The notes under the pieces were generated by a model, which was given only the letters and a program-made list of their open reading frames with translations, was not told the DNA's origin and did no database searches. Position numbers and translations under genes: made by a program. Below are positions 37,386 through 60,524 of a stretch of 64,000 nt of DNA, piece by piece; within the stretch, counting starts at the first letter, position 1, and the number at the start of each line of letters is the position of its first letter. Origin of the DNA: an uncultured Bacilli bacterium (GTDB lineage: Bacteria > Bacillota_I > Bacilli_A > RFN20 > CAG-631); assembly GCA_947626825.1 (NCBI GenBank), contig CANQTM010000006.1:6757-70756 (forward strand), in the 5' to 3' direction.

Positions 37386-37453
37386 TGTTGAAATTTTTAA
37401 ATAAAGCCGTCTTAAAACATGTTTATTATTTTACAATCAAAAACTTCATAAAT

Positions 37454-37498: not shown

Positions 37499-37883
37499 GG
37501 TGTGTGTAATTGAAACCAACAACAGTATTTTTTATCACCAAGTAAGGCAAATCACAAATCGTTAATAGTAAATTTGTAATGAAATTATTCATTACCTATG
37601 CCCCTGTACGACGAACTATTATTGTTTGTACACCTTAACTCGTCAGAAGTATGATACACAACAAGTTCAATCTCAAAAGTCTTTCCGTCAGTTATTTTTA
37701 TAATATAGTTTGCAACTTTCTCTATATTGTTGGTCGCAGAAACATCAGTGGCAAGAACATCTACCGATGTCATTAATAAATATGCTGCCACAGCAAGCAG
37801 CAAGTCCAATAGAAATTATTATTAATTTTTTTTCAAATCTTTAAACCAAATCGTGGCGGCTTAAGTTTTTGCTTTTTTATATG

Positions 37884-38082
37884 TTATGTAAATAACAATG
37901 ATAATAATTTTTTTGTAACTAAATATAAATCAGTGCATTTATATTTTTCATTTTCCATAAAAATAAATAAATTAATATAATCTTGTAACTCTTCTTTCAA
38001 AAAACCGCTAAGCTTATTTATAAAAAATTTAAAGCGATTACATAATTGATCAATTGGTTCTAGTATTTTATATACTTCTTTT
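37884..38082 (-). mobile_element. IS1595-like transposase C-terminal remnant
   Basis: LEPIDQLCNRFKFFINKLSGFLKEELQDYINLFIF resembles the IS1595-type C-terminus; cut at 38083 by an IS66-like end. Confidence 0.55.
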
Positions 38083-38415
38083 GTAAGCGGTAATTCCACT
38101 ATATATAAATAAAAGAAGCCTTCTTGTAGAATAAAAGCAGGAGGGTTTTTAATTATGAATGCATATAATGAAGAATTTAAAGCAGAAGTTGTAGAAGAAT
38201 ATCAAAAAACAAAAAGCATAAAAAAAACATGTGAAAAATATCAAATAGCTAAGTCAACAGTGTACAAGTGGCAGAAAGAATTAAGATCAATAGAAGAAGG
38301 ATTGGTAAATATAAATAATTACCAATCAATAACTATGCAAACAGAAAGAAAAGAAGAAAAGATAGAGATAGAAATAAATGGGTATCAAATAAAAAATCTT
38401 AAAGGAAGCAAGTAA
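38083..38415 (+). mobile_element. IS66-like left end with truncated TnpA HTH (38155-38415)
   Basis: Begins GTAAGCGG; GGAGG RBS; YNEEFKAEVV...CEKYQIAKSTVYKW HTH and IEIEING motif; no tnpB/tnpC follows. Confidence 0.6.
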
Positions 38416-38434
38416 ACTAAACTTGCTTCTTTTT
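38401..38434 (+). terminator. Intrinsic terminator
   Basis: AAAGGAAGCAAGT-aaactaa-ACTTGCTTCTTTTT. Confidence 0.75.
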
Positions 38435-38627
38435 GTATGTCAGACATTAATGCTAATCTAGTTGGAATCAACGGGTATTTATCGTCAAGTGTAGTACAAG
38501 TTGTTAGCAGTAATACTATGGGTAAAAGAAGTGAAAATGTGAAACGAAACAAGTAAATCAAAAGGCAACGAAAATTTAGTAATTAAAGTTTTCCCTAGTG
38601 AAACCTTAACACATTAAGAAATATTAA

Positions 38628-38701
38628 AACATAAAAGCAAAATGATGAATAAAGTGGGAAAATTGTTGATTGAAAATGAAAATACTGGTCAAATTTTCTA
38701 A
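38628..38701 (+). pseudogene. 3' stub of a second tyrosine recombinase gene
   Basis: 38628-38664 is identical to 27348-27384 (HKSKMMNKVGK), then TTG TTG versus TTA TTA (both Leu-Leu); stop at 38699-38701. Confidence 0.8.
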
Positions 38702-38709
38702 TAAAAAAA

Positions 38710-38900
38710 TTGTGCATTTATTAATCAAATAAATGCACTTTTTTATGAATTTATTCTATCATACTCGTGCTTTTTCGACAATATTTTTTTGATGTCTGTA
38801 ATTGTTTCTTTAAAAATATTTTTTAATTAAATTAAAATTTTAAAAAAAATTTATGCATATTTTTTAAAAATGTACATTTATTTGATTAATAAATGCACAA
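38710..38900. promoter_or_regulatory. Invertible promoter switch 2 (26-bp perfect, 33/35-bp extended inverted repeats)
   Basis: TTGTGCATTTATTAATCAAATAAATG (38710-38735) and its reverse complement (38875-38900); internal minus-strand promoter TTGTCG-17-TAGAAT with extended TG (38781-38753). Confidence 0.85.
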
Positions 38901-38964
38901 GAAAAGTTTAAAAAAATTTTATTATTTGCAAAAAAAAGTTTAATGGGGGAGGGTTCTTTTTGCT

Positions 38965-40986
38965 ATGAATTATGTTGATTTAAATCTTTCTATAGATTTG
39001 GGTAGTGATTCATTGAAAATCGCTTATGCATATAAAATATATTCTCAAGTTTATTATGGAAAACTAACATTATCATCTGATTCAAAAAAAATAAATTCAA
39101 TAATACCCGCAATTGCTTTATATAATACTGCTTCTTCATCATGGATATTTGCAAATGATGCCGAAGAAAATAGTAGTAGCGATTTTTCTTTTATTGTTAA
39201 AATCAAAGATTTATTAGCATTATTACAATTTAATGAAGATACTAATATTTATTCTTCAAACATGAAATATTATAAATATGCAACTATTTTTCCAAAATTT
39301 TATTTTCCTAATCCACCAAAAATTAGTGAAAAAAATCTTTTGGATTTTTCATATAAAGAAAAAAATGATATGACTTTTGATGGCAAAATAACTCCTCAAA
39401 CTTTATGCGAAAATTTTTTCAAATATATTGCTCAAATTGTTTTAGAAAAAATTAATATTATGGGCCATGCTCAAGATATTGAATTTGATAATATAAAAAT
39501 TGTGCAGATATTCTCTCCTAATGATACTGAACCATACATTGAAGAAATAAGCAGATTAATAACTTTATCTTTTGGTAAAAGTCCATTAAAAAAACTTAAT
39601 TCAACTAGAGCATTATGTGTCCTTGCTGATTATCAAAAGAAATTACCAGATGGTGAAGATATATTAGTTTTTGATATGGGAGAAAAAAAGATATCATCAA
39701 GTACTACAAGAGCAGGTAGCAGTGGTTCAAAAAGAATCATTGTTGATGGTGTAGATGGTCACCATGAGCCATTACCAAATGGAGGTAGTGACTTTGATTT
39801 AATTGTTGCTCAAAAATTAATTGAAACTATAAATAATGTTGAAACAACAGGTTACCCATCAAGAGGAAAAGAAGGTTTTAAAAGCAATTCAGTTTTGCAT
39901 TCAAAAGAATATTTGCTTTTACAAAATATAAAAACTACAAAGATGATTTTTAGTATGGCCAAAGATGAATATAATTATTACAATACATTGCCAATATCAA
40001 TTGAAAGAGAAACACATATTCAAACTATGATTTCTTTAGATATGTTCCAATCATGGATAGGTATAAAAGGAAACAATGGTGTTGCAAGAAATATAGTTGA
40101 TTACATTTATGATGAATTGTCACGAAAAATTAATAAAAAGGTTAATACTGTTTTTCTAGCTGGTGGACTTATTGAAACAATTGGTTTGCTAGATTATATT
40201 AACACTCAAATAAATAAAAAAATGAATAGAAGAATTTCTTTTCGCACTTTTGATCTTAGTTTTTCACAAAATAATATAAACTATTATCCAATTGAAGAAT
40301 TTGAAGATTCAACATATTCTATTGCTTTAGGTGGAGCAATATTTTTACTTGAAAATTATAAAATTGATGTTTGTTTACCATTAACTTATGGAACATGGGC
40401 TGGTGGTAGTAGCGTTCCAAAACTTTTAAGAGTTTTTAAAGATGAAAATGGTAAAGAAATGTATAAAGGCGATATTATTCCACAAACAAATAAGTTATTG
40501 GAACTTGGTGTATTTGAATTTAATATAGATGCTCCTGAATGTATTGAAGGAGAAGAATTTTATTCTTTAAATATTACTGAAAAAGAATTGGCTAATAGAT
40601 TTGGAAGAAGCACAATGTATTTTAACAATCAATATTTGATTGTTGGTGAACCAAAAAGTAAAGAAAGAACAGCAGTTGAAGAATTTTTTGATATTAAAAC
40701 TGTATCAGGAAACACTAATGACATTAATAGAAGTTCAAAAATAGTTTATTTTTATAACAATAGGCAAATCAAATTTTTAGATGAACTAACTATATTTTTT
40801 GATGAAGGTGTTACTTTAGATAAAAATGGTAAAATGACACCATTTATTAGAAATAATAAATATAAAAATCAATTTAAATATGCAAGATGTATTTATGTAA
40901 ATTATAGCGGCAGTGCCTTTAATATTGAATTAAGTGAAGTGGAATTTCGTTTTGAAAATATGAATTCATTTGAAATAAAACGTTAA
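38965..40986 (+). CDS. Divergent Hsp70/actin-fold protein
   Basis: SIDLGSDS (phosphate-1), IPAIALY, ILVFDMGEKK (degenerate phosphate-2), GGSDFD, VFLAGG. Confidence 0.75.
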   Translation: MNYVDLNLSIDLGSDSLKIAYAYKIYSQVYYGKLTLSSDSKKINSIIPAIALYNTASSSWIFANDAEENSSSDFSFIVKIKDLLALLQFNEDTNIYSSNMKYYKYATIFPKFYFPNPPKISEKNLLDFSYKEKNDMTFDGKITPQTLCENFFKYIAQIVLEKINIMGHAQDIEFDNIKIVQIFSPNDTEPYIEEISRLITLSFGKSPLKKLNSTRALCVLADYQKKLPDGEDILVFDMGEKKISSSTTRAGSSGSKRIIVDGVDGHHEPLPNGGSDFDLIVAQKLIETINNVETTGYPSRGKEGFKSNSVLHSKEYLLLQNIKTTKMIFSMAKDEYNYYNTLPISIERETHIQTMISLDMFQSWIGIKGNNGVARNIVDYIYDELSRKINKKVNTVFLAGGLIETIGLLDYINTQINKKMNRRISFRTFDLSFSQNNINYYPIEEFEDSTYSIALGGAIFLLENYKIDVCLPLTYGTWAGGSSVPKLLRVFKDENGKEMYKGDIIPQTNKLLELGVFEFNIDAPECIEGEEFYSLNITEKELANRFGRSTMYFNNQYLIVGEPKSKERTAVEEFFDIKTVSGNTNDINRSSKIVYFYNNRQIKFLDELTIFFDEGVTLDKNGKMTPFIRNNKYKNQFKYARCIYVNYSGSAFNIELSEVEFRFENMNSFEIKR

Positions 40987-41022: not shown

Positions 41023-43998
41023 ATGAGTGGTAAAAAAGTTAATATTAAATTTGAAGAAAACTCATTTTCTTTAGAAGCAGAAAGACAAAATATTTCTAAT
41101 GTTAAAATTCCATATAACAATGATATTAAATCAATGGAAAAAGAAATGGAAACATTAGATAGTTTTGATGATTTTGAAAATTTAATAATTGATTCTAGTG
41201 AATATGAACAAAAGCCTAATTCAAAATATGGTATCAAATATAATCACGAAATGCATGGTGGTGATGAATTTGAACATAATGTTTTAAGAGAACATGAATT
41301 AAAAGCTGCAAAACAATTTTTAAGAGATTTAAGAGGCTTTGGCTTGCTTTCTGATATTGTTGGTAGCGGAAAAACTTATGAAGCTTGTATTGTATTAAGT
41401 GAATTGGCTGCAAGAAATAAATTAAAATCACTTTTATTAATCGTTCCTTCTCAATTAATTAATTCATGGAAATATGTTTTAGAAAAAGATTTTGGACTAG
41501 GTGAAGATGTTTTATATATTTGTTCTAAAGCCGATTCATCTTTACAATCTGTTATACATGAATGTGGAACAACAAAAATAGATAATGTAATTATTCCTAA
41601 AAGGCCCATTTTAACTACTCCAGAAGTTTTTTCAAAATGGAATTTAAGTGGAAATGAAAAATTGTTTTTTAATGCTGTTGTTGTTGATGAGGCTCACCAT
41701 TTATGTGATGAAGAAGATAAATATTCTGAAACATTAAAATTGTTGTCAGAATTAGTAAAATCTAAAGATCGTGAAAACCATACATATTGTTTATTGCTTT
41801 CAGCAACACCTCATTCTGGCAATTTAAAAAAGATGTTTAGATTATGGTATTTTATCACTCAAAATGGTGGTAATCCAAACGATTTTAATAAAAATACAAC
41901 AATTCACTCATCTGATTATGAAAAATCAAAAAGAGATTATGAAGAAATAGTATGTCATGGTGCTACTACTATTATGCAATTTAAAGATCGAGTTCAATTG
42001 ATAAGAGTCAAAAATAAATATAAAGAAGAATTTGAAAGATTTCTTTCAACTAAACAAGAATATTATTCATCTATTCCATCAACTTTAAGAAATATGAATA
42101 ATGATGAAAAAAATGAAATTGAAAAAATTTATGTTCAAGAATTTTTAGATAACAACGAAAAAATTAAAGACGAAGTTACTAAATATGTTGCAAGTGCTTA
42201 TCATAATGCATTGTTAAGGAAAATTATGATTAGAAATCCTCATAATTCTATAAGCCTTTTACACAAAAAGAACATTGTTAACTATTTTTTATTACCAACA
42301 AAACAAAAAATAGAAACTAAAGAAATCAATGGATTAGATTTAGATAGTAACAATAAAATTGTTATTAACTTCAATAAAATAGATACGTCTGAAGCAATAT
42401 ATAATCCAACACAAAATAGACATTATAGTATTTATGAATATATGACAACATGTCATCATGAACAAAGATATAGTTATAGCGAAGATTATTGTAAGATATT
42501 TTTTGATTCAATATTTGACAATAGTTTTTTGTCTGATGAAATTAATACAAATAACTTATTTACAAAAAAGGGTTCTCGAAAATATTATATTGAAAGATTT
42601 ATGAAATCATCTTTTAATACAGAAGGCATTAAAAATTATATTGTTCCAGTATTTACAGATATAAGCGTTTTTGAATATAAAGTTTCAAAAATAAAAGAAA
42701 TTTGCCAAAAACATGAAAATGATAGAGTTATCATTTTCTTAGATTATGATGAAGCAAAAAGAGATTTTAGTATTATTAATGAAACTGAAAAAGCATTAAA
42801 GAAAGATACTAAAATTAACAAACGTTTAATAATTGGCAATAATGTTGATAAAGATAAGGTTATTGAAAAATTTACAAATACAAGTAATGCCGTATTGCTA
42901 GTTGAAGATGAAAGTTATACAGAAGGTGCTAATTTACAAAAATGTAATATTATCATTAATTTCCAAGTAACTCCAAATCCATTAGCTATGGATCAATGTA
43001 TTGGTAGAATTTTTAGAATGGGACAAGAAAATGATGTCACAATATATTCTTTAGCTGACATGACAAAATTAGAAGGATACATTCTAGCTTATTATACAGA
43101 TATACAATTATTATCAAGTAGAGGTGATGATATCACAATTATTGCTGGCAGTAATAATGATGATAGAATTGCCATTAGATGTCCATCATGTGGTAGAGTA
43201 AAATTATTTGATAAACTATATTATAGAAAACTCAAAGAAAGCAACAATCGTTTAGAATTGATGTGTAGTGGTAGTCAATTAAGACCACATGATTCAATAG
43301 AAATGACAGAAATGGGAATTTATAATTTCGAATGTGGCAATAAAAAAGAAAATAAAAATCAATTTTATGTAGAAAAATGTATGAGTTGTCGTGGAAAAAT
43401 TGAATTGTCAGAAGAAGAACAACAATATGTGTGCTTAGCTTCTAATAGATCAAATGGTGGTATTTATGCAAGAAGTCTAAATTCAAAAGATCACTATTGT
43501 CAAAAAATATGTGTTTTAAGACATTGTAATACATTTTTAGAACATATTAACGCAAAAGGTGGATGCCCAATACTTGAAACAAATAATTTAAGCGAATCAG
43601 AATTAATTAAAACATGTGTAAAATGTAACAAATGTACCGACGAATTAGCAAAATGTAGATATAGTTTAAGTAATGGGCAAGGTAAAGATGCCATTGCACA
43701 ATGTTTGAAATGTAGCCTTGGTTTTTACAATGATTTTTCTTGTGGTTTAGGTGCTCATGTTGTGGCTTTTGAAGAAAATGTAGAAACAGGAGAATGGGAA
43801 GCAAATTGTCCATTTAGTTCAAAATGCAAAAAATGTATTAAAGAAGTTAAAAGTTCAACATTTGCAAGTTATATAAGAAATTCTTGGGATTTCAGATTAG
43901 ATAATGGCGATTCATTTTGTACTTCTTTAGGAAAAGAAGCAAATAGTGTTTCACAAATCAAAGCAATTCTTTCACAAGATGAAATGGAAGAAAAATAA
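41023..43998 (+). CDS. SF2 SNF2/RapA-like helicase with Cys-rich C-terminal zinc-binding region
   Basis: LLSDIVGSGKT, VVVDEAHH, LLSATP, EGANLQ, QCIGRIFRMGQ; many CxxC pairs in the last ~280 aa. Confidence 0.9.
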   Translation: MSGKKVNIKFEENSFSLEAERQNISNVKIPYNNDIKSMEKEMETLDSFDDFENLIIDSSEYEQKPNSKYGIKYNHEMHGGDEFEHNVLREHELKAAKQFLRDLRGFGLLSDIVGSGKTYEACIVLSELAARNKLKSLLLIVPSQLINSWKYVLEKDFGLGEDVLYICSKADSSLQSVIHECGTTKIDNVIIPKRPILTTPEVFSKWNLSGNEKLFFNAVVVDEAHHLCDEEDKYSETLKLLSELVKSKDRENHTYCLLLSATPHSGNLKKMFRLWYFITQNGGNPNDFNKNTTIHSSDYEKSKRDYEEIVCHGATTIMQFKDRVQLIRVKNKYKEEFERFLSTKQEYYSSIPSTLRNMNNDEKNEIEKIYVQEFLDNNEKIKDEVTKYVASAYHNALLRKIMIRNPHNSISLLHKKNIVNYFLLPTKQKIETKEINGLDLDSNNKIVINFNKIDTSEAIYNPTQNRHYSIYEYMTTCHHEQRYSYSEDYCKIFFDSIFDNSFLSDEINTNNLFTKKGSRKYYIERFMKSSFNTEGIKNYIVPVFTDISVFEYKVSKIKEICQKHENDRVIIFLDYDEAKRDFSIINETEKALKKDTKINKRLIIGNNVDKDKVIEKFTNTSNAVLLVEDESYTEGANLQKCNIIINFQVTPNPLAMDQCIGRIFRMGQENDVTIYSLADMTKLEGYILAYYTDIQLLSSRGDDITIIAGSNNDDRIAIRCPSCGRVKLFDKLYYRKLKESNNRLELMCSGSQLRPHDSIEMTEMGIYNFECGNKKENKNQFYVEKCMSCRGKIELSEEEQQYVCLASNRSNGGIYARSLNSKDHYCQKICVLRHCNTFLEHINAKGGCPILETNNLSESELIKTCVKCNKCTDELAKCRYSLSNGQGKDAIAQCLKCSLGFYNDFSCGLGAHVVAFEENVETGEWEANCPFSSKCKKCIKEVKSSTFASYIRNSWDFRLDNGDSFCTSLGKEANSVSQIKAILSQDEMEEK

Positions 43999-44018: not shown

Positions 44019-45701
44019 ATGAATAGATATTCAATTGGCCAAAATTACGAAAAAACATTCAAGGCAGTTTGTTCGATAATTGAAAATGGTGAACAATCTT
44101 TTATACAAAATTTAGGCCTTTCTTATGATAGAGAAAGAAACATTATAAGATACAATGAAAATGAATTTGTTTATGAAATGAATTCACATAATGAAGTTAA
44201 TTATCAAACGTTGAATTTAAATGAAACTGATGATGGTGCTTCATGGTTTAATTTTCTTCGTAATCCAGACAATGCTTCAACAAATGATTCTCAAGTAAAA
44301 TGGAAAAATTTACTTGAATTAATTGCTCGCAATTATCATAAAAAATATTCATTTACTGAATATGTTCAAGATGATAATTCATTAAATATTTCAGATGAAT
44401 TGAAAGCCAACTATGAACAAAAAACAAATGAAATTATTTCTAAATTTTTTGATAATATTGCAAGTCCTGAAATAAAAATAATTGAAAAACTAGATGAAAT
44501 AAAACCTATAGACATTTATGGTGTTTCATTAAAATTAAGCATTAGTTCAGGTGGCGAATCAAAAACATTATTAGGTAAAATTTATTTCACTAAATTAGAT
44601 GAAAATAATCTTCAACTAATGTCTTCAGAATATGGCAAAAGTATAGAAAGTAATCTTGAAATTAATAATCAAGAAAATGATAATAATATTGATTATGAAG
44701 ATGTTAATAAGGATGAAATAGATACAGAAATTAGAAAGGTATTAATAGCAACTGAAAGTCAATTTATTAATATGTCAGAAACTAATGATTTAATGAAAAT
44801 TATGACTATTAATGAAGAAGGACAAGATGTATTAAATGATTTAGTTCGTGATGATAATTTTGATGTTTTAAATATTTCATGTGACAAAATCACAGTTTTA
44901 GGAATTTTCCATGTTTCTTGGAGAAACTGTACAATCAAAGTTAGTTCAAAAGGCTATGACTTATTAGAATTTTCATTTGATTTAAATAATACAGTAACAA
45001 TTAAATGTAAAAATTGTAATGAATGTTTAGTTTCTAATAACATTATTATGGGAACATCATTAGATATAAATAAAGTTGCTTCTAAAGAAGATGTGAGAGG
45101 AACATGTCTTGATAATAAACATTTTATAAAAACTGAATGTAATTCAGCTTGTAGTGAAGTTTGTTTCAAAAAATTTAAATGTTATTGTGATGTTGAACAA
45201 GTTGAATATTGTAATTTAAGAACACGTGAAGATTTATCAACATTAAGATGTAAAAATTGTCACATTCCTGAATCAGTATATGTTTCTTTAAAACGTGAAC
45301 ATAATATTCCAAATGGTTTATATTTTGATAGAAACGAAAATTCCTTAGAAGTTTATAAAATTCAAGATATAGGAAAATGTGCATGTTGTGGCACTTTGTT
45401 TAATAAAAATAAAGAAGATGGTAATCATACATATTGTAAATTATGTTCTTCTATTTTTAATAAAAGTCTTGATGATCAAGATGAAAATAAAATATGTAAA
45501 TCTAATTATAAAATGATTAGACAAATTTTACCATTACATACGAGATTTTTGAATCTATTTAAAAAGAAATATGCAATTATGATTCCAAATGATACAAGAA
45601 TTTTACTTTGTTTGGGCAAACAAAAATATCTATATGATTTATTAGATTTAAATACCAATGGACATTATTTGCCAAAACCAAAAAAATTAAAAATTAGATA
45701 A
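44019..45701 (+). CDS. Hypothetical protein with Cys-rich (multi-CxxC) C-terminal half
   Basis: CKNC, CNSAC..VC, CYC, CKNC, CACC, CKLC; GGGGAG RBS; follows the SNF2 helicase. Confidence 0.75.
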   Translation: MNRYSIGQNYEKTFKAVCSIIENGEQSFIQNLGLSYDRERNIIRYNENEFVYEMNSHNEVNYQTLNLNETDDGASWFNFLRNPDNASTNDSQVKWKNLLELIARNYHKKYSFTEYVQDDNSLNISDELKANYEQKTNEIISKFFDNIASPEIKIIEKLDEIKPIDIYGVSLKLSISSGGESKTLLGKIYFTKLDENNLQLMSSEYGKSIESNLEINNQENDNNIDYEDVNKDEIDTEIRKVLIATESQFINMSETNDLMKIMTINEEGQDVLNDLVRDDNFDVLNISCDKITVLGIFHVSWRNCTIKVSSKGYDLLEFSFDLNNTVTIKCKNCNECLVSNNIIMGTSLDINKVASKEDVRGTCLDNKHFIKTECNSACSEVCFKKFKCYCDVEQVEYCNLRTREDLSTLRCKNCHIPESVYVSLKREHNIPNGLYFDRNENSLEVYKIQDIGKCACCGTLFNKNKEDGNHTYCKLCSSIFNKSLDDQDENKICKSNYKMIRQILPLHTRFLNLFKKKYAIMIPNDTRILLCLGKQKYLYDLLDLNTNGHYLPKPKKLKIR

Positions 45702-45720: not shown

Positions 45721-48700
45721 ATGAATAATCAAACATTCAATAAAATTAGCAATACCATATTACCAAAAGAGATGAAAAGTCTAAAAATATTTTTATGGCT
45801 AGGCATTATTTTATCTATAATTATTGATTCATGGTCACTTGCTTTTATTATTCAAGATGGATATAGTTCTATATATTATATTTATCCAATTGTTTTAATT
45901 GTTTTTGATGTTTTGTTTCTTATTTATTCTTTATTTGCAAATCAAAGATTTAAATATTCTTTATTTACTTTAATTTTTTATTTTCTATTTATAATTGTTA
46001 GCAGTTTGGCCTTATTAGTCTTTTATATAACATATCAAGAAAAGGTAATTGTAACTTTAATTGCTATGATTATATGGACAGCTATTCACTTATTTATCGG
46101 TATAAATACACTTATAACTTATATTTTTGCTTCATCACGTATTAAGAAAAAACAAATTATTATTTCAACATTATTTTTAATTTTTATGGGTTTATTTACT
46201 GGTGGCTTTGGTTATTACACTCAACAAAATGGCGTTTTTGGCCAAGGAAGAGTCGAAGTGGCTAAAACATTAGAATATAGCTATAATAATGACTTAAATG
46301 GTTATGAAGTTGTAAATACAATGAGTTCAAAAGGCAATACAATTATTGTTCCTGAAAAATTTAATAACATAAATGTTGTGGCTGTTGATAGTACAATTTT
46401 TACAGATAAAACTGTTAAATATGTAAGATTTGAAAAAACAGATAATGAAATAACATTTATTAATAGCGATATTGATAATGGACAAATTAATAATGATATT
46501 TCTATTTATGCAGAAGAAGAAAATTATATTCAAATAAAAAAAGCATTTGATGATTTGACATTAAATAATGACGCTTTTTTACAAATAAATAATAATTTTT
46601 ATCCAGAAATAGCTGATGATGAAGTTATGGTTTCATTTAGTTATGATGAACAAAGTTTTAATGATGCAAATCAAAGTTTACTTGGTGTATGGATTGGTAA
46701 AAAAGGTACTACATTTAATATTGAAAATGCTACAATTGTTCCAGAATATGCTAAACATATTGTTCATACAAATAAAAATGATTTAACTTGGAATTATAAT
46801 AACAATAATAAAAAAATATTATCTAATTTAGATTTAAATAAGAAAAGTATAACTAAAAATTATATTGGAAAAGACAGCATTCAAATAAAATTTGATGATA
46901 TTTATTCTATTAAAATTAATTCTGATAATGATGAAAAATATGAATTATCAGATAATGATCGTTTTACAAATAAAACTTTAAATTTAAAGTTAGCTACAGA
47001 AGAAAATATTAATAATTTATTTAATGTTTCTCAAAGAGATGGATTTGATTTAGAATGGTTTTCAAATTCAAATTATGATGTAGCAAGTAAAATTAATAAT
47101 TACACTGATTTTGTTTTAAAATCAAAATATGATATTGATGTGTATCCAAAATGGACATTACATACTCCAAAAATAAATAATATTACTACAAATTTATCAG
47201 CAGATAATGAAGTAATTTATGGTAATCAACTTATTTTAAAAAGTCAAATTCCTGATAAAATTGCAACTGGAATCAATTATAGATATACATGGATGCATAA
47301 TAATAATCAATATTCACCAACAAATGTTAATGATACAGTTAATTATCAAATTAATAGTGTTGTTTTAGAAGATGCTGGAAATTATATTTTGCAAATTGAG
47401 GCTTATTCAAATAACATTACATCATTAGTTTCATCATCATCAACACAAATAAATATTCAAGTTGCTAAAAGAAAATTGGATTTTTCTTGGAGTATTCCAA
47501 GTGAATTGATTTATAATGGTGAAAATCAATTTGATAAAATAAAGTGTACATATAATACAAATGATGTTGTTCATAATGATCAAATTACATTTTCATATAC
47601 TTCACAAACATTTATTAATCATGGAGATTATACATTAAATATATATTTAACTGGAGATACTTATAATAAATATTACATTGCTAGTGGCAAAGAAAAAACT
47701 AATTTTGAAATAAAACAAAGAGCCATTTCATTAATTTGGGATAGCAATACAACTTTTACTTATGATGGAGATTTTAAAGATGTTAAAGTAATCAATATAA
47801 CAGGACATGTTTTATCTGAAAGAGATGCTATTCTTTCAAGTATTATCTATTCTGGCAAACAAATAGATGCTGGTCATCATGAAATGACAGCCACTGTTCC
47901 AAGCGATTCAAATTATGTAGTAACTGCAAATAATTCATGTAATTTCGAAATTTCTAAAAGAGATTTATTAATTACTTTTAAACCTACTACAAAAACATAT
48001 GATGGTATTATTCCTCAATCATTTGATTACAATGTTCAAGAAAATGATATTGCTCCAACAGATACATTAAATAATATTTTAACATTACGTTACACAGGAG
48101 ATGCTGTTAAAAATGTTGATGTTGGAGTTTATGATTATGGAGCAGGATATGTTGCAAATTCTCTTGCAAAAAATTATAACATTACAATAATTGATAATAA
48201 ATTAACTATTATTCAACGTGATTTGAATATTACTTTTAATGAAAAAAATAAAACATATGATGGTAAAGCTTTAGATAAAAAAGATTTTACATATCGAATT
48301 GATAGTTTAGCCTCAAAAGATTCATTAGAACAAGTTATTACATTAAATATAAATGATGAATGTTTACAAGCAATCGATGCTGATACATATACTATTGATG
48401 CTACATATGAAGCAAAAGAATTAGCTAAAAATTATAATATTTCTATTGTTTCAAATAAATTAAATATTACTAAAAGAAATTTAAATATTACATTTAATAG
48501 CCAAAACAAAACATATGATGGCAAAATTTTTGATAATGAATTTACATATAATATTAATAGTTTAGCTTCAACAGATTCTTTAGAAAATGTTTTAACTTTA
48601 ACTTTAACTGGAACTGCTTTAACAGCTATTGATTCTGGAAAATATGAAATTAATGCTACATATGAAGAAAATGAATTAGCTAAGAATTATAATATTACAG

Positions 48701-50370
48701 TAATTCGTAATGAATTAACAATTAATAAAAGAAATCTAACAATTACACTTGATAGCCAAGAAAAAGTTTATGATGGCAAAGTATTTGATGGTGAATTTAC
48801 ATATAATTATGATAATTTAGCTGATACTGATAATTTAAATGAAGTATTATCTTTAGATTTTTCTAAAGCTAAAGAAATCATAAATTCTGGAGAACATTTA
48901 ATTAATCCAGAATGCAATGGTAATAGCAAATATGATAATTATAATGTAAATATTGTTGATAATTATTTAACTATAAATCTAAGAACTTTAACAATTAACT
49001 TAAATAATCAAGAAAAGATTTATGATGGTAAATTGTTTACAGAAGATAATGAATTTGATTATGAAGTAGTTAATTTGGCATCTACTGATAGATTAGAAGA
49101 AGTTTTAGAATTAACAATTCAAGGAAATGCTATAACTGCCATAAATCAAGGATCATATGAAATCGATGCACAATATGTACCAAAAAATAAAAGTAACAAT
49201 TATGATATTACTATAAATGGAGCAACTTATACTATTAAAAAGCGTCAAATTACGGCTAAATGGGACGATACTAATTCATTTATATATAATGGTACAATTC
49301 CTTCATATAAAATTGCTACATTAAATGGCGTGGTTGCTGGTGAAGAAAGTAACACACTTAATTCCATTCAATATAATATTTCAGATGGTAATGATGGAAA
49401 ATATGTTGGTGAACATATTGTTATTGCTTCATTACGTGCAGATAGCAATTATGAATTTGAAAATTCACAAGTACAAACACAATCAACATATTATGTTACA
49501 AAATGTGAATTACAAATTACATTTGAAATGCAAAATAAAACATATGATGGACAAATGATGAAAGAAAATGAATTTACTTATGAAGTTAATGGTTTAGCAA
49601 GAACTGATCAATTGAATCAAGTTTTAACATTAACTGTTACAGGATCTGCTTTAACTGCAATAAATAAAGGACAATATTCAATTAATGCTACATATAGAGA
49701 AAATACACTTGCCAAAAATTATAATATTAAAATTATCGGTAATACTTTAACAATTAATCCAAAAGAAATTAATTTAGTTTGGTCCCTTCCAGAATCAAAT
49801 TATATTTATAATGGCGAAAATCAATACCCTACAGTTACAAGAATTGTTAACGCTGTTGTAGGAGAAGAAGAAGATATTAAATCCGCCCTTGTATATCAAA
49901 ATTATGGAAAAGATGCTGGAGAATATGATGTTAGTGTTACATTAAATAATAATAATTATGTCATTATTTCAAATAATGACACATGCCATTATACAATTGT
50001 TAAAAGAGATTTAACTATAACATTTAGAGACCAAGAAAAAGTATATGATGGTAATAAATTTGATGAAGAAGAATTTACTTATGATGTTGTTGGTTTGGCC
50101 TCAACAGATCAATTAGATGAAATTTTAACATTAACACTTTCAGGAACAGCAATTGATGCAACAAGCGAAGGTAATGATTATATAATTAATGCTACTTATG
50201 AATTAACTTCTAAAGGTGAAAAAAATTATAATGTTACAATTGTTGCAGGTAAATTAATCATTAAAAGTAGTGATGAAGATTCTGATGAACCTGTTGAAAG
50301 TGAAATGTTAGATGAAATTAAATTATCAGATTTATTTGTAAATAAGGATGTGATTAAATTATGGGAATAA
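45721..50370 (+). CDS. Membrane-anchored surface protein: five N-terminal TM helices, Ig-like domain and tandem MBG-type repeats
   Basis: Five hydrophobic segments with RIKKK before the fifth; repeated KRxLxITFxxxxKxYDG...LASTDxLxxVL...NYNI units of about 85 aa. Confidence 0.85.
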   Translation: MNNQTFNKISNTILPKEMKSLKIFLWLGIILSIIIDSWSLAFIIQDGYSSIYYIYPIVLIVFDVLFLIYSLFANQRFKYSLFTLIFYFLFIIVSSLALLVFYITYQEKVIVTLIAMIIWTAIHLFIGINTLITYIFASSRIKKKQIIISTLFLIFMGLFTGGFGYYTQQNGVFGQGRVEVAKTLEYSYNNDLNGYEVVNTMSSKGNTIIVPEKFNNINVVAVDSTIFTDKTVKYVRFEKTDNEITFINSDIDNGQINNDISIYAEEENYIQIKKAFDDLTLNNDAFLQINNNFYPEIADDEVMVSFSYDEQSFNDANQSLLGVWIGKKGTTFNIENATIVPEYAKHIVHTNKNDLTWNYNNNNKKILSNLDLNKKSITKNYIGKDSIQIKFDDIYSIKINSDNDEKYELSDNDRFTNKTLNLKLATEENINNLFNVSQRDGFDLEWFSNSNYDVASKINNYTDFVLKSKYDIDVYPKWTLHTPKINNITTNLSADNEVIYGNQLILKSQIPDKIATGINYRYTWMHNNNQYSPTNVNDTVNYQINSVVLEDAGNYILQIEAYSNNITSLVSSSSTQINIQVAKRKLDFSWSIPSELIYNGENQFDKIKCTYNTNDVVHNDQITFSYTSQTFINHGDYTLNIYLTGDTYNKYYIASGKEKTNFEIKQRAISLIWDSNTTFTYDGDFKDVKVINITGHVLSERDAILSSIIYSGKQIDAGHHEMTATVPSDSNYVVTANNSCNFEISKRDLLITFKPTTKTYDGIIPQSFDYNVQENDIAPTDTLNNILTLRYTGDAVKNVDVGVYDYGAGYVANSLAKNYNITIIDNKLTIIQRDLNITFNEKNKTYDGKALDKKDFTYRIDSLASKDSLEQVITLNINDECLQAIDADTYTIDATYEAKELAKNYNISIVSNKLNITKRNLNITFNSQNKTYDGKIFDNEFTYNINSLASTDSLENVLTLTLTGTALTAIDSGKYEINATYEENELAKNYNITVIRNELTINKRNLTITLDSQEKVYDGKVFDGEFTYNYDNLADTDNLNEVLSLDFSKAKEIINSGEHLINPECNGNSKYDNYNVNIVDNYLTINLRTLTINLNNQEKIYDGKLFTEDNEFDYEVVNLASTDRLEEVLELTIQGNAITAINQGSYEIDAQYVPKNKSNNYDITINGATYTIKKRQITAKWDDTNSFIYNGTIPSYKIATLNGVVAGEESNTLNSIQYNISDGNDGKYVGEHIVIASLRADSNYEFENSQVQTQSTYYVTKCELQITFEMQNKTYDGQMMKENEFTYEVNGLARTDQLNQVLTLTVTGSALTAINKGQYSINATYRENTLAKNYNIKIIGNTLTINPKEINLVWSLPESNYIYNGENQYPTVTRIVNAVVGEEEDIKSALVYQNYGKDAGEYDVSVTLNNNNYVIISNNDTCHYTIVKRDLTITFRDQEKVYDGNKFDEEEFTYDVVGLASTDQLDEILTLTLSGTAIDATSEGNDYIINATYELTSKGEKNYNVTIVAGKLIIKSSDEDSDEPVESEMLDEIKLSDLFVNKDVIKLWE

Positions 50371-51518
50371 AATGTTCTGCTTGTCATTTTGAAATTGAAG
50401 AACCATTAATATTATTTAATGGAGATTGGGTATGCCCACATTGTAAAAAAAATATTTTAGACAAAATGGAAAATGTCAAATTTGAGATTACTGATGAAAA
50501 TGAATTTTTATTTAATTTATCTGAATCTTATTATTGTCAGGCAATTAAGGCAGAAAGTAAAAAACTAAAAGATTCATATATTGTTCAAGCAATCAAATAT
50601 TGTCAACAAGCCATGGATAAGAAACATCCTTATGCTTATTTTAGAATGGGCTATTATTTTGATAAAGATTATTTAGAAAACAAATGGGATGAAAATCGCA
50701 GATGTCAAATTGCTTATTCATATTATGTTGCTGTTTTGGAAGGAAAAATTGATGAAAGCAACAAAAAAAGACTAGAAGAAATTCAAGAAACAACAAAAGA
50801 ATTTTTATACACAATGTTATATTATTGGCCAGAGGCTCATGTTAATGATTCTAAATATTTTATTTCAAATAATGTAAAAAAATATGATTTAAAAGAATTT
50901 GAAAAGAAACAACAAAATACAATTATTTCTAATTTAGAAAGATTCAAAAATTCTTTACTTTCTTTAAATCAAGATAATGGAACAACATTGTGTGGTGTTT
51001 TTAAATTCGATAAAGAAAGTTTTGAACAATTTTTAAAAGATTATCGTAAAGATATAGAAAAGCCTTTAAAAGATCGAAAATGGTATAACATTTTAAAAAA
51101 TTCATCCAAGGTTATATTTTATTATAGTTCAAGCCAAGCAGCAATCAAAAAAGAAGCCGAATTATATTTCAATTGTTTTGCCGAAAATCAAAATAATTCA
51201 AATAATATAAGAAACGCATTGGTTAGTGAACAAGGTCGTGGTGATGATTTATTAGGATGTTTAGATGCCAAAGTAATATATGCATGTTTTATTAGTCAAA
51301 AGAAAAAACATAAATATTTTTCAACTTCACAAGTTTCTAAAATTAATAAATTTCTAATTGAAGATGATGAAAACAATCGAGAAAGCATATTAGGACATTT
51401 AGAAACTAAAGGAAATAGAAATTGGATTATTATTTATGATGATGATATTTATGCTCAAGAAGGCCGTAATATTAAAAATAAAGTTTATCAATTCGTAGAA
51501 GAATTATTGAAAAATTAA
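50361..51518 (+). CDS. Zn-ribbon plus Sel1/TPR-like protein
   Basis: N-terminal CSAC...CPHC; AIKYCQQAMDKKHPYAYFRMGYYF Sel1-like; start overlaps the previous gene. Confidence 0.65.
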   Translation: MGIKCSACHFEIEEPLILFNGDWVCPHCKKNILDKMENVKFEITDENEFLFNLSESYYCQAIKAESKKLKDSYIVQAIKYCQQAMDKKHPYAYFRMGYYFDKDYLENKWDENRRCQIAYSYYVAVLEGKIDESNKKRLEEIQETTKEFLYTMLYYWPEAHVNDSKYFISNNVKKYDLKEFEKKQQNTIISNLERFKNSLLSLNQDNGTTLCGVFKFDKESFEQFLKDYRKDIEKPLKDRKWYNILKNSSKVIFYYSSSQAAIKKEAELYFNCFAENQNNSNNIRNALVSEQGRGDDLLGCLDAKVIYACFISQKKKHKYFSTSQVSKINKFLIEDDENNRESILGHLETKGNRNWIIIYDDDIYAQEGRNIKNKVYQFVEELLKN

Positions 51519-59774: not shown

Positions 59775-60524
59775 ATGGAAGAAGTTAAAGTTAATGAAAT
59801 GGAATTAAATGAAGATGAACAAGAAATAGAAAGAATCCATAAAAGAAATGAAATGAAAAGGGCTATTAACAAAAAAAGAAAGCTATTACAAGATAATAAA
59901 GCTAATTTACTTGAAACAGCCTCAAAATATTTAGAAATTTATGGAGAAGATTCTCAAATTGTTCAAGTTTTTGCTACTTTAATAGAAATTATTAGTTCAA
60001 TTGAATCAGTTATTGATGTTATTGTTGGAGTTCAAACTGTAGAATTGTTTATGCAAGATGCTATAGGCGTAATTGATGATTGTTTAAATTTATCTAATTT
60101 AATTTTTGCAAATGAAAGTCAAGAACAAACTGTAAAGAAATCTTTCTTTAAGAGATTAAAAGAAAAAAGAGAAATTAAACGTCGTGCTAAAAATATTAAA
60201 AGAAATCTAATTAACAAAGTAGAAGAGATTCGATTTAATTTATCTGTAAGTAGTTCTGCAATGAGTGGTATTATGGGTGTCTTTAATAAATTCCCAAATA
60301 TGGTAAATAAAAGTTTTGGTAAAAGCATGAACACATTTACTAGTGCTAATTCTAAAAAGAAAAAGAAAAAAGGTAATACTGGTCCTTCAAGTGGCATATT
60401 ACAAATTAAAAAATATGTTGAAGAAAAAAATCAAGAAGGAAGCACTAACAACGATTTTGATAAACCATCTAATGAAAAACCATCAAGTGGTACTCCAAAA
60501 AACACTGGTGTTGGTGGTTTATAA
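59775..60524 (+). CDS. Hypothetical all-helical coiled-coil protein with disordered C-terminus (ESCRT-III/PspA-like candidate)
   Basis: 249 aa with long amphipathic helices and a low-complexity tail; immediately upstream of the MIT-like AAA ATPase. Confidence 0.6.
   Translation: MEEVKVNEMELNEDEQEIERIHKRNEMKRAINKKRKLLQDNKANLLETASKYLEIYGEDSQIVQVFATLIEIISSIESVIDVIVGVQTVELFMQDAIGVIDDCLNLSNLIFANESQEQTVKKSFFKRLKEKREIKRRAKNIKRNLINKVEEIRFNLSVSSSAMSGIMGVFNKFPNMVNKSFGKSMNTFTSANSKKKKKKGNTGPSSGILQIKKYVEEKNQEGSTNNDFDKPSNEKPSSGTPKNTGVGGL

What the first reader, a model, noticed from the sequence alone, without database searches (positions are those of the whole stretch)
38710..38900. Invertible promoter in OFF orientation directly upstream of the 11-gene operon
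Seen: 26-bp perfect inverted repeats (33/35 when extended). The left repeat is a dyad, GTGCATTTATT-aatca-AATAAATGCAC (11-bp arms, asymmetric 5-bp core); the right one is the same with one arm mismatch and the core inverted. Inside is an extended -10 sigma-A promoter, TTGTCG-17-(TGn)TAGAAT, pointing away from the operon. Known: this is the geometry of tyrosine-recombinase inversion switches, which usually control surface structures. Inference: inversion turns on the whole operon, which would be unusual for a helicase/ATPase-rich locus.
Basis: partly seen in the sequence, partly recalled or inferred. Interest (0 to 1): 0.85.

Follow-up and report, generated by a model that had tools for sequence, protein, structure and literature searches.

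The report
Orphaned invertible promoter before gene island
A short DNA segment carrying a promoter and bracketed by two recombinase target sites sits before a 24-kb gene row, built like a flip-switch, but the gene for the enzyme that would flip it has been almost wholly deleted, so the switch may be stuck.

Summary
Two 27-bp dyads (38712-38738 and 38872-38898) differ at one base and have inverted 5-bp centres. They form the best inverted-repeat pair in the 1.84-Mb genome: 26 bp perfect, against 16-20 bp at most in simulated genomes. They occur nowhere else in the genome. An extended -10 promoter between them points away from the 11-gene row.

New here: the last ~27 codons of a tyrosine recombinase gene end 9 bp before the left dyad. 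The rest has been replaced by IS66-type and other repeat fragments. An intact paralogue 11 kb upstream (26489-27406) has its own dyad-containing repeat pair and a homologous promoter. Relatives carry the same recombinase-plus-switch module before varied cargo. In two relatives the flanks align directly and the interior aligns only in reverse complement, so this switch family does invert.

Verdict: a tyrosine-recombinase inverton, a new member of a known kind, probably locked or flipped only in trans. The OFF call rests on a conserved promoter motif alone. The cargo is a conserved, uncharacterised Hsp70-like/SNF2/membrane-repeat cassette plus defence-like helicase and AAA modules.

The parts
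38712..38738 (.). Left recombination site (IRL): dyad with 11-bp arms and asymmetric centre AATCA. It also forms a bidirectional terminator-like hairpin.
   Evidence: The hairpin folds at -14.6 and -14.5 kcal/mol on the two strands (z -4.8 and -4.9), with a T-run after it on both strands.
38872..38898 (.). Right recombination site (IRR): the same dyad with one arm mismatch and the centre inverted (TGATT). No T-run follows it on the + strand.
   Evidence: The + strand hairpin is only -6.9 kcal/mol (z -1.5) and is not called a terminator.
38739..38871 (.). 133-bp segment between the two sites, the presumed invertible part.
   Evidence: Its part next to IRL is 30/38 identical, by my count on the alignment, to the same part of the paralogous switch at 27519-27585.
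38753..38781 (-). Extended -10 sigma-A-type promoter TTGTCG-17-TGATAGAAT, firing leftwards into IRL. After inversion it would lie at about 38829-38857 on the + strand, about 100 nt before the ATG at 38965.
   Evidence: A homologous TTGTGG-17-TGATAAAAT lies in the paralogous switch and TTGAAA-17-TGTTATTAT in G009:C1. The mirrored position is my arithmetic.
38618..38702 (+). 3' stub of a tyrosine recombinase gene (...LKHKSKMMNKVGKLLIENENTGQIF*), with its stop codon 9 bp before IRL.
   Evidence: DNA is 95% identical over 43 bp to the 3' end of the recombinase gene at 26489-27406. tblastn E 1.4e-5. hmmsearch with a 4-sequence profile gives i-E 1.6e-5 for profile positions 292-311 only; nothing else in 37300-38710 matches.
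38083..38394 (+). Truncated IS66-family element: left end plus orf1. The 86-aa HTH ORF at 38155-38415 is its orf1 running into foreign sequence.
   Evidence: 94-98% identical copies lie in contigs C40, C85, C54, C8 and C22. The C40 copy continues into an IS66 Orf2 (PF05717, E 2.8e-17), whereas the window copy diverges at 38395. HTH_28 and HTH_Tnp_1 hits.
37826..38084 (.). Second repeat fragment, abutting the IS66 fragment.
   Evidence: 94% identical to C66:4538-4793.
38965..40986 (+). Gene 1, 673 aa, divergent Hsp70-like ATPase. First gene of a conserved cassette.
   Evidence: 83 homologues, most about 30-38% identical, mostly in Clostridia MAGs. One source names a homologue an Hsp70 family protein and one carries PF00012. 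No homologue in 40 relatives. RBS GGGGGAGGG lies before the ATG.
41023..43998 (+). Gene 2, 991 aa, SNF2-type helicase.
   Evidence: Pfam SNF2-rel_dom, Helicase_C and ResIII. PADLOC BrxH, DrmD and DpdE models at E 1e-24 to 1e-27. All NCBIfam hits are far below their cut-offs.
44019..45701 (+). Gene 3, 560 aa, cysteine-rich (zinc-ribbon-like), no family.
   Evidence: No Pfam, PADLOC or NCBIfam hit. 11 invariant Cys in 15 homologues. No PDB relative by profile.
45721..50370 (+). Gene 4, 1549 aa, about five N-terminal membrane helices followed by MBG/YDG-type repeats.
   Evidence: Hydropathy analysis. Among 11 aligned members, MBG_3 matches 3, YDG 2 and MBG_2 2. The window protein itself has only a weak YDG hit, E 0.0018. 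Atlas lead at 0.76 to a YDG/LRR_5 cluster.
50361..51518 (+). Gene 5, 385 aa, N-terminal zinc ribbon, no family.
51547..53091 (+). Gene 6, 514 aa, no family, not conserved with the cassette.
   Evidence: Found in 0 of 5 cassette-bearing genomes.
53107..55095 (+). Gene 7, 662 aa, no family, found with the cassette elsewhere.
   Evidence: Found in 3 of 5 cassette-bearing genomes, on the same contig as the cassette.
55116..59750 (+). Gene 8, 1544 aa, SF1 helicase with a C-terminal REase_MTES_1575-like domain, related to the anti-phage ProA/Hhe/PDC-S37 families.
   Evidence: Pfam AAA_11, AAA_12 and DUF4011. PADLOC PDC-S37 E 9.9e-126 and Hhe 4e-57. NCBIfam ProA 1.3e-122, but 411 bits against a cut-off of 1500.
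59775..60524 (+). Gene 9, 249 aa, no family.
60544..61743 (+). Gene 10, 399 aa, AAA+ ATPase, IetA/IteA-like.
   Evidence: Pfam AAA 4e-31. PADLOC IetA 8e-31. NCBIfam IteA 3.9e-27, below its cut-off.
61767..62975 (+). Gene 11, 402 aa, no family. Last gene of the row; a 659-bp gap follows.
26489..27406 (+). Intact paralogous tyrosine recombinase, 305 aa, with R..HxxR..H..Y motifs visible.
   Evidence: Pfam Phage_integrase 3.2e-28 plus Phage_int_SAM_3. Sequence. Nearest solved structure is the Tn1549 Int (6en0), E 9e-18.
27493..27711 (.). Paralogous switch: repeat arms 27493-27518 and 27686-27711 (26 nt, 96% complementary, 167 nt apart). Each arm holds the dyad TCTATCA-AGA-TGATAGA. It has a leftward promoter and is followed by MACPF and BspA-LRR genes.
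   Evidence: Fourth-best repeat pair in the genome. Promoter. Cargo.

Best explanation
This is a tyrosine-recombinase inverton.

Anatomy. Two complete recombination sites lie in inverted orientation 133 bp apart. Each has 11-bp inverted arms around an asymmetric centre, which can also be read as 10-7-10, the layout of lox/FRT/dif-type sites. They bracket a sigma-A extended -10 promoter.

Inferred mechanism. Recombinase dimers bind each site, pair the sites and exchange strands in the centre, turning the roughly 160-bp piece round.
- In the assembled orientation the promoter fires leftwards. After about 8 nt it runs into the left site, which is also a hairpin plus U-run terminator. Only a transcript of about 45 nt would be made, and the 11-gene row would be silent.
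- In the other orientation the promoter would fire through the right site, which has no U-run, into gene 1 with a leader of about 100 nt.

Present state. The recombinase gene that once ended 9 bp before the left site has been destroyed. Only its last ~27 codons remain, behind a truncated IS66 element and other repeat fragments. The switch is therefore now either locked in this orientation (my estimate 55-60%) or flipped only by a paralogue acting in trans (35-40%).

Shown and inferred. Shown: the sites, their uniqueness and significance, the stub, the paralogous and orthologous modules, and an evolutionary inversion in the family. Inferred: promoter function, the OFF state, termination at the left site, co-transcription of the 11 genes, and present inability to flip.
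For: 1. The repeats are real and far beyond chance.
2. The recombinase 3' stub directly abuts the left site.
3. The same window holds an intact paralogue. It has its own dyad-containing repeat pair starting about 86 bp after its stop codon (27493-27518) and a promoter block 30/38 identical in the same position and orientation.
4. Of the 14 places with a recombinase homologue in the 12 genomes of the family, 7 have a repeat pair of 18 or more matched bases within 100 bp of the gene. Gaps between arms are 74-167 nt, and most arms are dyads. Two more such modules appear in the 91-genome order sample, in G077 and G050.
5. G009:C1 has sites that are 22/27 identical (my count) to those of the window. 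Its recombinase ends ...LIEHKSKMMNKIGKLL, like the stub.
6. At homologous loci in G008:C16 and G009:C2 the flanks align directly (134/200 and 164/200). The interior aligns only in reverse complement: 60/86, score 35.5, against -1.0 for the direct alignment, and 0 of 500 shuffles reach 35.5. This is an inversion bounded by the repeats.
7. The left site is terminator-like on both strands and the right site is not.
8. Loss of the recombinase gene locks such switches in Clostridioides difficile recV mutants (PMC7446863, abstract seen in the listing).
Against: - No inverted read, contig or allele was seen for this locus.
- The metagenome scan gave only two unrelated single palindromes.
- No within-species second genome is held.
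- Promoter-like matches are at chance density in this DNA, and a weak + strand match (TTTAAA-18-TAAAAT, 38809-38838) lies inside the segment. The present orientation could therefore be ON.
- The best promoter points towards the recombinase gene in 3 of 3 downstream-type modules tested by pattern (window switch 1, window switch 2, G009:C1). By eye the G007 module does the same. This is a little odd for freely flipping switches.
- All 11 ORFs are intact, up to 1549 codons in a 25% G+C genome. That fits a recent loss or continued expression better than long silence.
- The assembly is a MAG of 87 contigs, 95% complete, and the region is full of IS fragments. A misjoin or an unassembled recombinase copy cannot be excluded.
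Confidence: 0.6

Rival explanations
1. The switch is live. One of the paralogous tyrosine recombinases of the genome (window 26489-27406, or the C47, C72 or C42 copies) flips it in trans. The assembly merely shows the majority OFF state.
For: The repeats are still 34/36 identical and the 24-kb row is fully open. The stub DNA is 95% identical over 43 bp to the 3' end of the intact paralogue. In C. difficile one recombinase, RecV, serves the flagellar switch from a distance (PMC7446863 abstract). That RecV also serves several switches with dissimilar repeats is recalled, not read here.
Against: The paralogues have quite different site sequences: TCTATCA-AGA-TGATAGA at 27493, and AACATCTAA-TATGTAC-TTAGATGTT in C47. 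They are only 42-50% identical to the G009:C1 enzyme, whose sites resemble these. Each module in relatives carries its own recombinase next to its own sites.
Confidence: 0.25
2. The element is an inverton, but the assembled orientation is ON. Either a + strand promoter in or after the segment drives the row, or the segment acts through orientation-dependent termination rather than promoter direction, as with the cwpV/flgB-type leaders of C. difficile.
For: A + strand match TTTAAA-18-TAAAAT lies at 38809-38838. Promoter scans cannot discriminate in this DNA. The ORFs are intact. The flgB switch of C. difficile works after transcription initiation, through Rho (PMC7446863, title and abstract).
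Against: The block conserved between the two window switches covers the minus-strand extended -10 promoter, not the + strand match. The left site would terminate any transcription entering from upstream in either orientation, so the promoter must lie inside or to the right of the segment. No good hexamer pair lies between the right site and the ATG.
Confidence: 0.15
3. There is no recombination. The two dyads are operators for a dimeric DNA-binding protein, which represses by looping.
For: Perfect 11-bp inverted arms are also what dimeric HTH regulators bind. For a palindrome with an asymmetric centre, either relative orientation of two copies is about equally likely. An HTH ORF lies 300 bp upstream.
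Against: The HTH ORF is orf1 of a multi-copy IS66-type element, whereas the dyad is unique to this locus. The recombinase stub abuts the site. Homologous modules always pair such sites with a recombinase, and one pair has inverted.
Confidence: 0.05
4. The left hairpin is only the intrinsic terminator of the former upstream gene and the right one is a chance or duplicated hairpin. Alternatively, the 187-bp unit is a small foldback or MITE-like mobile element.
For: The left site scores as a terminator on both strands.
Against: The two stems agree at 21 of 22 positions and the loops are reverse complements of each other. The right site has no U-run. No third copy exists in this genome. No pair was found in 400 other genomes of the order, only 11 single 3-mismatch hits against a similar number of hits for the backwards control pattern.
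Confidence: 0.03

Closest known systems
Bacteroides Tsr-type tyrosine recombinases with an invertible promoter next to the recombinase gene (Tsr15 and Tsr16 loci of B. fragilis; passages of PMC13139388 read)
   Same: The recombinase gene is directly followed by a short invertible promoter region, which gates a co-oriented downstream operon. Several such modules occur per genome, with varied cargo.
   Different: The phylum differs: this is a low-G+C genome whose nearest structural relative for the recombinase is the Tn1549 Int. No sequence comparison with the Tsr proteins was possible here. Each repeat here is a complete dyad site. At this locus the recombinase gene is a stub.
Clostridioides difficile RecV-dependent switches (flgB, cmrRST, pdcB; abstracts of PMC7446863, PMC8844915 and PMC9286219 in the listing)
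   Same: A gut Bacillota organism with tyrosine-recombinase inversion of a short segment before an operon. Loss of the recombinase gives phase-locked cells.
   Different: RecV acts from a distant gene on several switches. The flgB switch acts after initiation, through Rho, and not by promoter direction. Here each module has, or had, its own adjacent recombinase and appears to carry the promoter.
E. coli fimS with FimB/FimE (recalled, not read here)
   Same: Invertible promoter, adjacent tyrosine recombinase genes, ON/OFF control of an operon.
   Different: fimS has 9-bp repeats, a 314-bp segment and needs IHF and Lrp. Here the sites are 27-bp dyads around 133 bp. NCBIfam's tyrosine-type DNA invertase model matches the G009:C1 enzyme only at E 6e-6 (26 bits against a cut-off of 221) and is not listed at E <= 1e-5 for the window paralogue.
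Cre/loxP and FLP/FRT site geometry (recalled)
   Same: Two inverted binding arms lie around a short asymmetric crossover region. Two sites in inverted orientation give inversion without accessory sites.
   Different: The arms and centre are 11-5-11 (or 10-7-10) rather than 13-8-13. The cleavage positions are unknown. No sequence relation was tested.
Phase-variable defence genes: hsdS invertons of Type I R-M systems (PMC7672463, abstract) and gene-altering inversions that include BREX genes (PMC9881135, abstract and term counts)
   Same: Site-specific inversion creates heterogeneity in loci related to phage defence.
   Different: Those inversions swap coding segments. Here a promoter would gate a whole 24-kb row, and the defence role of the row is only partly supported.

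Membership tests
Tyrosine-recombinase invertible promoter (inverton) | Pair of inverted repeats bracketing a short (under 1 kb) intergenic segment | tested here: met
   26 bp perfect and 34/36 extended, 133 bp between the dyads. Top-ranked pair of the genome and beyond 5 simulated genomes.
Tyrosine-recombinase invertible promoter (inverton) | An intact site-specific recombinase able to act on the repeats, usually encoded beside them | tested here: not met
   Only a stub of about 27 codons remains at 38618-38702. No other copy of that type is in the assembly. Paralogues at 42-50% identity exist, with different sites. Intact in the paralogous module and in relatives.
Tyrosine-recombinase invertible promoter (inverton) | Promoter inside the invertible segment | tested here: inconclusive
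   An extended -10 match lies in a block conserved with the paralogous switch. However, consensus matches are at chance density, and no RNA run is listed.
Tyrosine-recombinase invertible promoter (inverton) | Both orientations found in a population or among strains | not testable with these tools
The metagenome scan was uninformative. Only one genome per species is held. For the switch family the feature is met: G008:C16 and G009:C2 differ by an inversion.
Tyrosine-recombinase invertible promoter (inverton) | Expression of the downstream genes depends on orientation | not testable with these tools
   No RNA holder is listed. This needs RNA-seq or a reporter.
Simple tyrosine-recombinase core site (lox/FRT/dif type) | Two inverted binding arms around a short asymmetric central region, with site orientation defined by that region | tested here: met
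   11-bp arms with centre AATCA at the left and TGATT at the right. The same layout occurs in 6 or more related modules. Cleavage points are not testable.
Intrinsic terminator | G+C-containing hairpin followed by a U-run | tested here: met
   Met for the left site on both strands. Not met for the right site on the + strand.
MITE or other repeated mobile element | Several copies per genome | tested here: not met
   The dyad is found only at these two places. The interior has no other match in the genome.
IS66 family (for 38083-38394) | orf1 (HTH) followed by IS66 Orf2 and a transposase, in multiple copies | tested here: met
   Met for the family assignment: copies lie in 5 other contigs, and the C40 copy has PF05717 directly after orf1. 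The window copy is truncated before orf2.
DISARM / BREX / Dpd defence systems (for the gene row) | SNF2 helicase together with the system's other signature genes (DrmA/B/MII; PglX/PglZ/BrxC; DpdA etc.), with proteins above the curated cut-offs | tested here: not met
   Gene 2 scores 107 bits against a cut-off of 610 (DrmD) and 84 against 500 (DpdE). Genes 1, 3-7, 9 and 11 hit no PADLOC or NCBIfam model.
Hhe / ProA anti-phage helicase-nucleases (gene 8) and IetA/IteA ATPase (gene 10) | Score above the curated family cut-off | tested here: not met
   ProA 411 bits against 1500, Hhe 280 against 2000, IteA 95 against 510. These genes are related to the families but are not members by the curated test. 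PADLOC PDC-S37 scores E 9.9e-126.

The most novel reading that the evidence does not exclude
The recombinase-plus-switch unit is a portable phase-variation cassette in this uncultured low-G+C gut lineage. It has been grafted repeatedly in front of horizontally acquired surface and conflict operons. Here it gates an entire 24-kb island: an uncharacterised, widely conserved Hsp70-like/SNF2/zinc-ribbon/membrane-repeat system, plus ProA/Hhe-like and IetA-like modules. Several putative defence systems would then be switched on and off together as a bet-hedge. Loss of the recombinase to IS activity would freeze the island silent while its coding capacity stays intact.
Probability: 0.2. Interest if true: 0.7.

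Novelty: new member of a known kind. Interest (0 to 1): 0.45.

Why it matters
Invertible promoters are a well-known bet-hedging device, best studied in Bacteroides, E. coli and C. difficile. This locus matters in three ways.

1. It documents a family of recombinase-linked switches with complete lox-like sites in an uncultured small-genome gut lineage. Comparative evidence shows that the family inverts.
2. The same module stands before very different cargo, which suggests modular recruitment. The cargo includes BspA-LRR surface proteins, MACPF, TIR-TPR, VWA plus kinase, genes whose N-terminus looks like a DNA-methyltransferase/restriction protein (by eye only), and here a 24-kb row with defence-like helicases.
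3. It gives a natural example of a switch orphaned by IS-mediated loss of its recombinase, the natural counterpart of laboratory phase-locked mutants.

If the row is shown to be anti-phage and orientation-dependent, it would be a case of a whole multi-system island under one flip-switch. The conserved gene 1-5 (+7) cassette is itself an uncharacterised system and worth a test.

Tried and rejected
- Read-level test. The look-up of sequencing runs listed 12 DNA runs, all kept as Logan contigs, from 3 studies, labelled rabbit gut or gut metagenome.
- Metagenome scan with the degenerate dyad pattern gave 2 contigs, each with a single palindrome, at 35% and 46% G+C and in unrelated context. I treat them as chance hits.
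- Order-wide pattern scan of 401 genomes at up to 3 mismatches. Only G000 has a pair. 11 other genomes have one 3-mismatch hit each, and a similar number of genomes have a hit to the backwards control pattern.
- The DNA of 38100-39500 has no informative match in 40 relatives.
- Gene 1 has no homologue in 40 relatives.
- The search for related loci with gene 1 alone found nothing. With a closer 9-sequence alignment it gave 22 loci. None has a recombinase homologue within 10 kb upstream, so the switch is not part of the cassette elsewhere.
- I looked for more of the lost recombinase in 37300-38710 with a profile over six frames, with stops read as X. Only the last 20 codons are significant. Short hits such as CLYTLTR are not significant.
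- Global alignment of switch interiors across modules is not above shuffles, except for the G008/G009:C2 pair.
- Profile searches of genes 3 and 5 against PDB sequences gave 0 hits. The Atlas search for gene 4 gave a 0.76 lead only.
- The CoCoNuT paper (PMC11090510, passages read) describes Hsp70-like proteins in McrBC-type systems. No McrB homologue is present here, so I do not file the row there.
- Supplementary files of papers were not consulted. The supplements of PMC9881135 and of the inverton surveys might list similar loci.
Full report
OBSERVATION

The left site is GTGCATTTATT-AATCA-AATAAATGCAC at 38712-38738. The right site is GTACATTTATT-TGATT-AATAAATGCAC at 38872-38898. It has one arm mismatch, and its 5-bp centre is the reverse complement of the left one. 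As an inverted repeat, 26 bp are perfect (38710-38735 against 38875-38900) and 34 of 36 match when extended. The pattern scan finds TTGTCG-17-TAGAAT with a TG extension on the minus strand (38781 to 38753), pointing away from the gene row.

Is it more than chance?
- In a PhaseFinder-like scan of the whole 1.84-Mb assembly (87 contigs, 95% complete), this pair ranks first of 396 seeded pairs.
- Perfect inverted repeats 30-800 bp apart reach 28, 26, 26 and 23 bp in the real genome. Five first-order Markov genomes of the same size reach only 16-20 bp.
- The dyad at up to 3 mismatches occurs only at these two places in the genome, and the backwards control gives none.
- The promoter match alone is weak evidence. 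Such matches are at or below shuffle expectation in this 25% G+C DNA: 8 against 10.8, 100 against 115, and 112 against 113.

WHAT LIES BESIDE IT

The decisive new observation is upstream. Positions 38618-38702 encode ...LKHKSKMMNKVGKLLIENENTGQIF*, and the stop codon lies 9 bp before the left site.
- This matches the C-terminus of a 305-aa tyrosine recombinase encoded at 26489-27406 in the same window (Pfam Phage_integrase 3.2e-28).
- The DNA is 95% identical over 43 bp. tblastn gives E 1.4e-5.
- A profile of four recombinases matches only its positions 292-311 (i-E 1.6e-5). Nothing else in 37300-38710 matches in any frame.

The rest of the gene has been replaced.
- 38083-38394 is the left end and orf1 of an IS66-family element. 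It has 94-98% identical copies in five other contigs.
- The copy in C40 runs on into an IS66 Orf2 (PF05717, 2.8e-17). The window copy diverges at 38395.
- 37826-38084 is a fragment of another repeat, 94% identical to a stretch of C66.

The 86-aa HTH ORF at 38155-38415 is therefore a transposon remnant and not a regulator of the locus. No other copy of a recombinase of this type exists in the assembly. tblastn at E <= 0.01 finds only the window paralogue, three more paralogues (C47, C72, C42; 34-46% identical to the G009:C1 enzyme) and three distant ones.

THE SWITCH BELONGS TO A FAMILY

The intact paralogue at 26489-27406 is followed, about 86 bp after its stop codon, by its own repeat pair: 27493-27518 and 27686-27711, 26 nt, 96% complementary, 167 nt apart. 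It is the fourth-best pair in the genome. Each arm holds a dyad, TCTATCA-AGA-TGATAGA. Next to its left arm lies TTGTGG-17-TGATAAAAT on the minus strand. This sits in a block that is 30/38 identical, by my count on the alignment, to the promoter block of the finding. Its cargo is a MACPF protein and BspA-type LRR proteins.

In the 12 genomes of the same family, 14 places encode a homologue at E <= 1e-30.
- Seven of these have an inverted-repeat pair of 18 or more matched bases within 100 bp of the gene, with 74-167 nt between arms. Most arms are dyads.
- Seven do not. They include fragments at contig ends and two that look like integrases of a mobile element.
- A 91-genome sample of the order adds two more modules, in G077 and G050.
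- G009:C1 has sites GTACACTTATT-AATCT-AATATATGTA(C), 22/27 identical to the window sites by my count. Its recombinase ends LIEHKSKMMNKIGKLL. It is the best candidate orthologue of the lost enzyme.

Cargo differs from module to module.
- VWA, Ser/Thr kinase and MACPF in G009:C1. Its MACPF is 46% identical to the window MACPF.
- SPFH/zinc-ribbon and TIR-TPR in G007.
- BspA-LRR in G008.
- In G077 and G035, a gene whose N-terminus (..GEVFTNEREVNAMLDLV..) looks to me like a DNA-methyltransferase/restriction protein. This is by eye only.

The module thus appears portable.

DOES THE FAMILY INVERT?

Yes, at least over evolutionary time. G008:C16 and G009:C2 carry homologous switches between a recombinase gene and a divergent gene row.
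- The 200 bp on each side align directly: 134/200 and 164/200, with reverse-complement scores near zero.
- The 80-86-bp interior aligns only as reverse complement: 60/86, score 35.5, against -1.0 for the direct alignment. None of 500 shuffles reaches 35.5, and the best shuffle scores 7.
- The interior holds a strong promoter, TAGACA-17-(TG)TATAAT in one and TGGACA-17-TATAAT in the other, on opposite strands. I read this by eye.

For the window's own switch no such comparison is possible.

MECHANISM

Each repeat is a complete site of the lox/FRT/dif kind: two inverted arms around a short asymmetric centre, 11-5-11 or equally 10-7-10. The centres define opposite site orientations, which for a simple tyrosine recombinase gives inversion. 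This rests on established knowledge of the family, recalled rather than read here.

Present orientation (inferred):
- The promoter would start transcription about 8 nt before the left site.
- That site folds at -14.5 kcal/mol (z -4.9) and is followed by a U-run on that strand. It is also terminator-like on the + strand, where it would end the recombinase transcript.
- Only a short RNA of about 45 nt would be made.

After inversion (inferred):
- The -35 and -10 elements would lie at about 38829-38857 on the + strand (my arithmetic).
- Transcription would pass the right site, which has no U-run and folds at -6.9 kcal/mol, z -1.5.
- It would reach the ATG at 38965 behind a good ribosome-binding site.

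The 11 genes are co-oriented, with gaps of 16-37 nt or an overlap, and no terminator-like site lies in any gap. This is consistent with one transcript but does not show it.

PRESENT STATE

With its own recombinase gone, the switch is either frozen or depends on a paralogue.
- For frozen: the site sequences of the paralogues are quite different. Each module in relatives keeps its own enzyme. C. difficile recV mutants are phase-locked (PMC7446863, abstract).
- For trans-flipping or a very recent loss: the repeats are still 34/36 identical, the IS fragment is 98% identical to another copy, and all 11 ORFs are open.
- G003, of the same genus, also has a switch beside a recombinase reduced to a 126-aa C-terminal ORF. 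Loss of the enzyme may therefore be recurrent.

My estimates: inverton, now or recently, 0.85; the promoter reading and OFF in the assembled orientation, 0.65; still able to flip in this strain, 0.35-0.4.

THE CARGO

- Gene 1 is a divergent Hsp70-like ATPase. It has 83 homologues, most about 30-38% identical, mostly in Clostridia MAGs. It has none in 40 relatives of this genome.
- In 22 loci from other genomes, genes 1-4 are syntenic in 19 of the 22. The other three are missing gene 3, or genes 3 and 4, or gene 4, on short contigs. Gene 5 follows in 13.
- Gene 7 lies in the same locus in 3 of 5 genomes tested, and gene 6 in 0 of 5.
- None of the 22 loci has a recombinase homologue in the 10 kb upstream. 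The switch is therefore a lineage-specific addition.
- Gene 2 is an SNF2 helicase related to BrxH, DrmD and DpdE, but far below the curated cut-offs.
- Genes 3 and 5 are cysteine-rich.
- Gene 4 has about five N-terminal membrane helices followed by MBG/YDG-type repeats. The row therefore does encode a large envelope protein.
- Gene 8 is related to the ProA/Hhe/PDC-S37 anti-phage helicase-nucleases, and gene 10 to the IetA/IteA ATPase. Both score below the curated cut-offs.

I read the row as a horizontally acquired island of one uncharacterised seven-gene system plus two defence-like modules. Its function is not established.

COMPARISON AND NOVELTY

The closest known arrangements are:
- the Bacteroides Tsr recombinases with an invertible promoter directly downstream of the recombinase gene (PMC13139388, passages);
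- the RecV switches of C. difficile (abstracts);
- fimS of E. coli (recalled).

Phase variation of defence genes by inversion is known for hsdS and some BREX genes (PMC7672463 and PMC9881135, abstracts). My three literature searches on invertible promoters and defence systems listed no paper that describes a promoter inverton before a multi-system non-R-M island in Bacillota. Only listings and abstracts were read, and supplements were closed.

I rate the finding a new member of a known kind. It is of moderate interest for three reasons: the portable module family, the orphaned state, and the unknown cargo.

Noticed in passing
window 26489-27711 and 28054-37385: A second, intact recombinase-plus-switch module stands before a MACPF gene and two paralogous BspA-type LRR genes. 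The two LRR genes share a 1265-bp stretch at 89% identity (30593-31832 against 34633-35887). This is the natural positive control for any read-based test.
   Followed up: partly
G000:C3:66510-66677 (own genome, outside the window): A third candidate inverton: a repeat pair of 24/29 with 110 bp between the arms, beside a small serine resolvase/invertase (Pfam Resolvase 2e-28). By eye, TTGAGA-17-TAGAAT faces an 83-aa ORF.
   Followed up: partly
window 38965-55095; loci L045-L066: A conserved, uncharacterised cassette: Hsp70-like ATPase, SNF2 helicase, Cys-rich protein, multi-pass membrane protein with MBG/YDG repeats, zinc-ribbon protein, and often gene 7. It occurs in 22 loci of Clostridia and Bacilli MAGs and matches no PADLOC or NCBIfam system.
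   Followed up: partly
G000:C47:1-240 (own genome): Another recombinase paralogue has a dyad, AACATCTAA-TATGTAC-TTAGATGTT, 10 bp after its stop codon. The contig ends about 200 bp further on. This could be an assembly break at a switch present in both orientations.
   Followed up: no
G003:C74:9533-9916 (L069) and its switch (L020): In a species of the same genus, a switch (repeat CTAATGATATATTAGATGAACAA, 128 bp between arms) lies beside a recombinase reduced to a 126-aa C-terminal ORF. By eye, its promoter-like TTGACA-17-TAAACT faces the cargo. This may be a second, independently orphaned switch.
   Followed up: partly
G073:C39 (L071) and G004:C18 (L017): Nearly identical DNA of about 250 bp lies downstream of recombinase homologues in genomes of two different families. 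It is followed by an ORF starting LKDNKIYN.ALYCRLSLDDG, which looks like a large serine recombinase. It is probably a shared mobile element, not a switch.
   Followed up: no
window 38401-38433: A terminator-like hairpin (AAAGGAAGCAAGT..ACTTGCTTCTTTT) lies directly after the point where the IS66 fragment breaks off. The origin of 38395-38617 is unknown.
   Followed up: no
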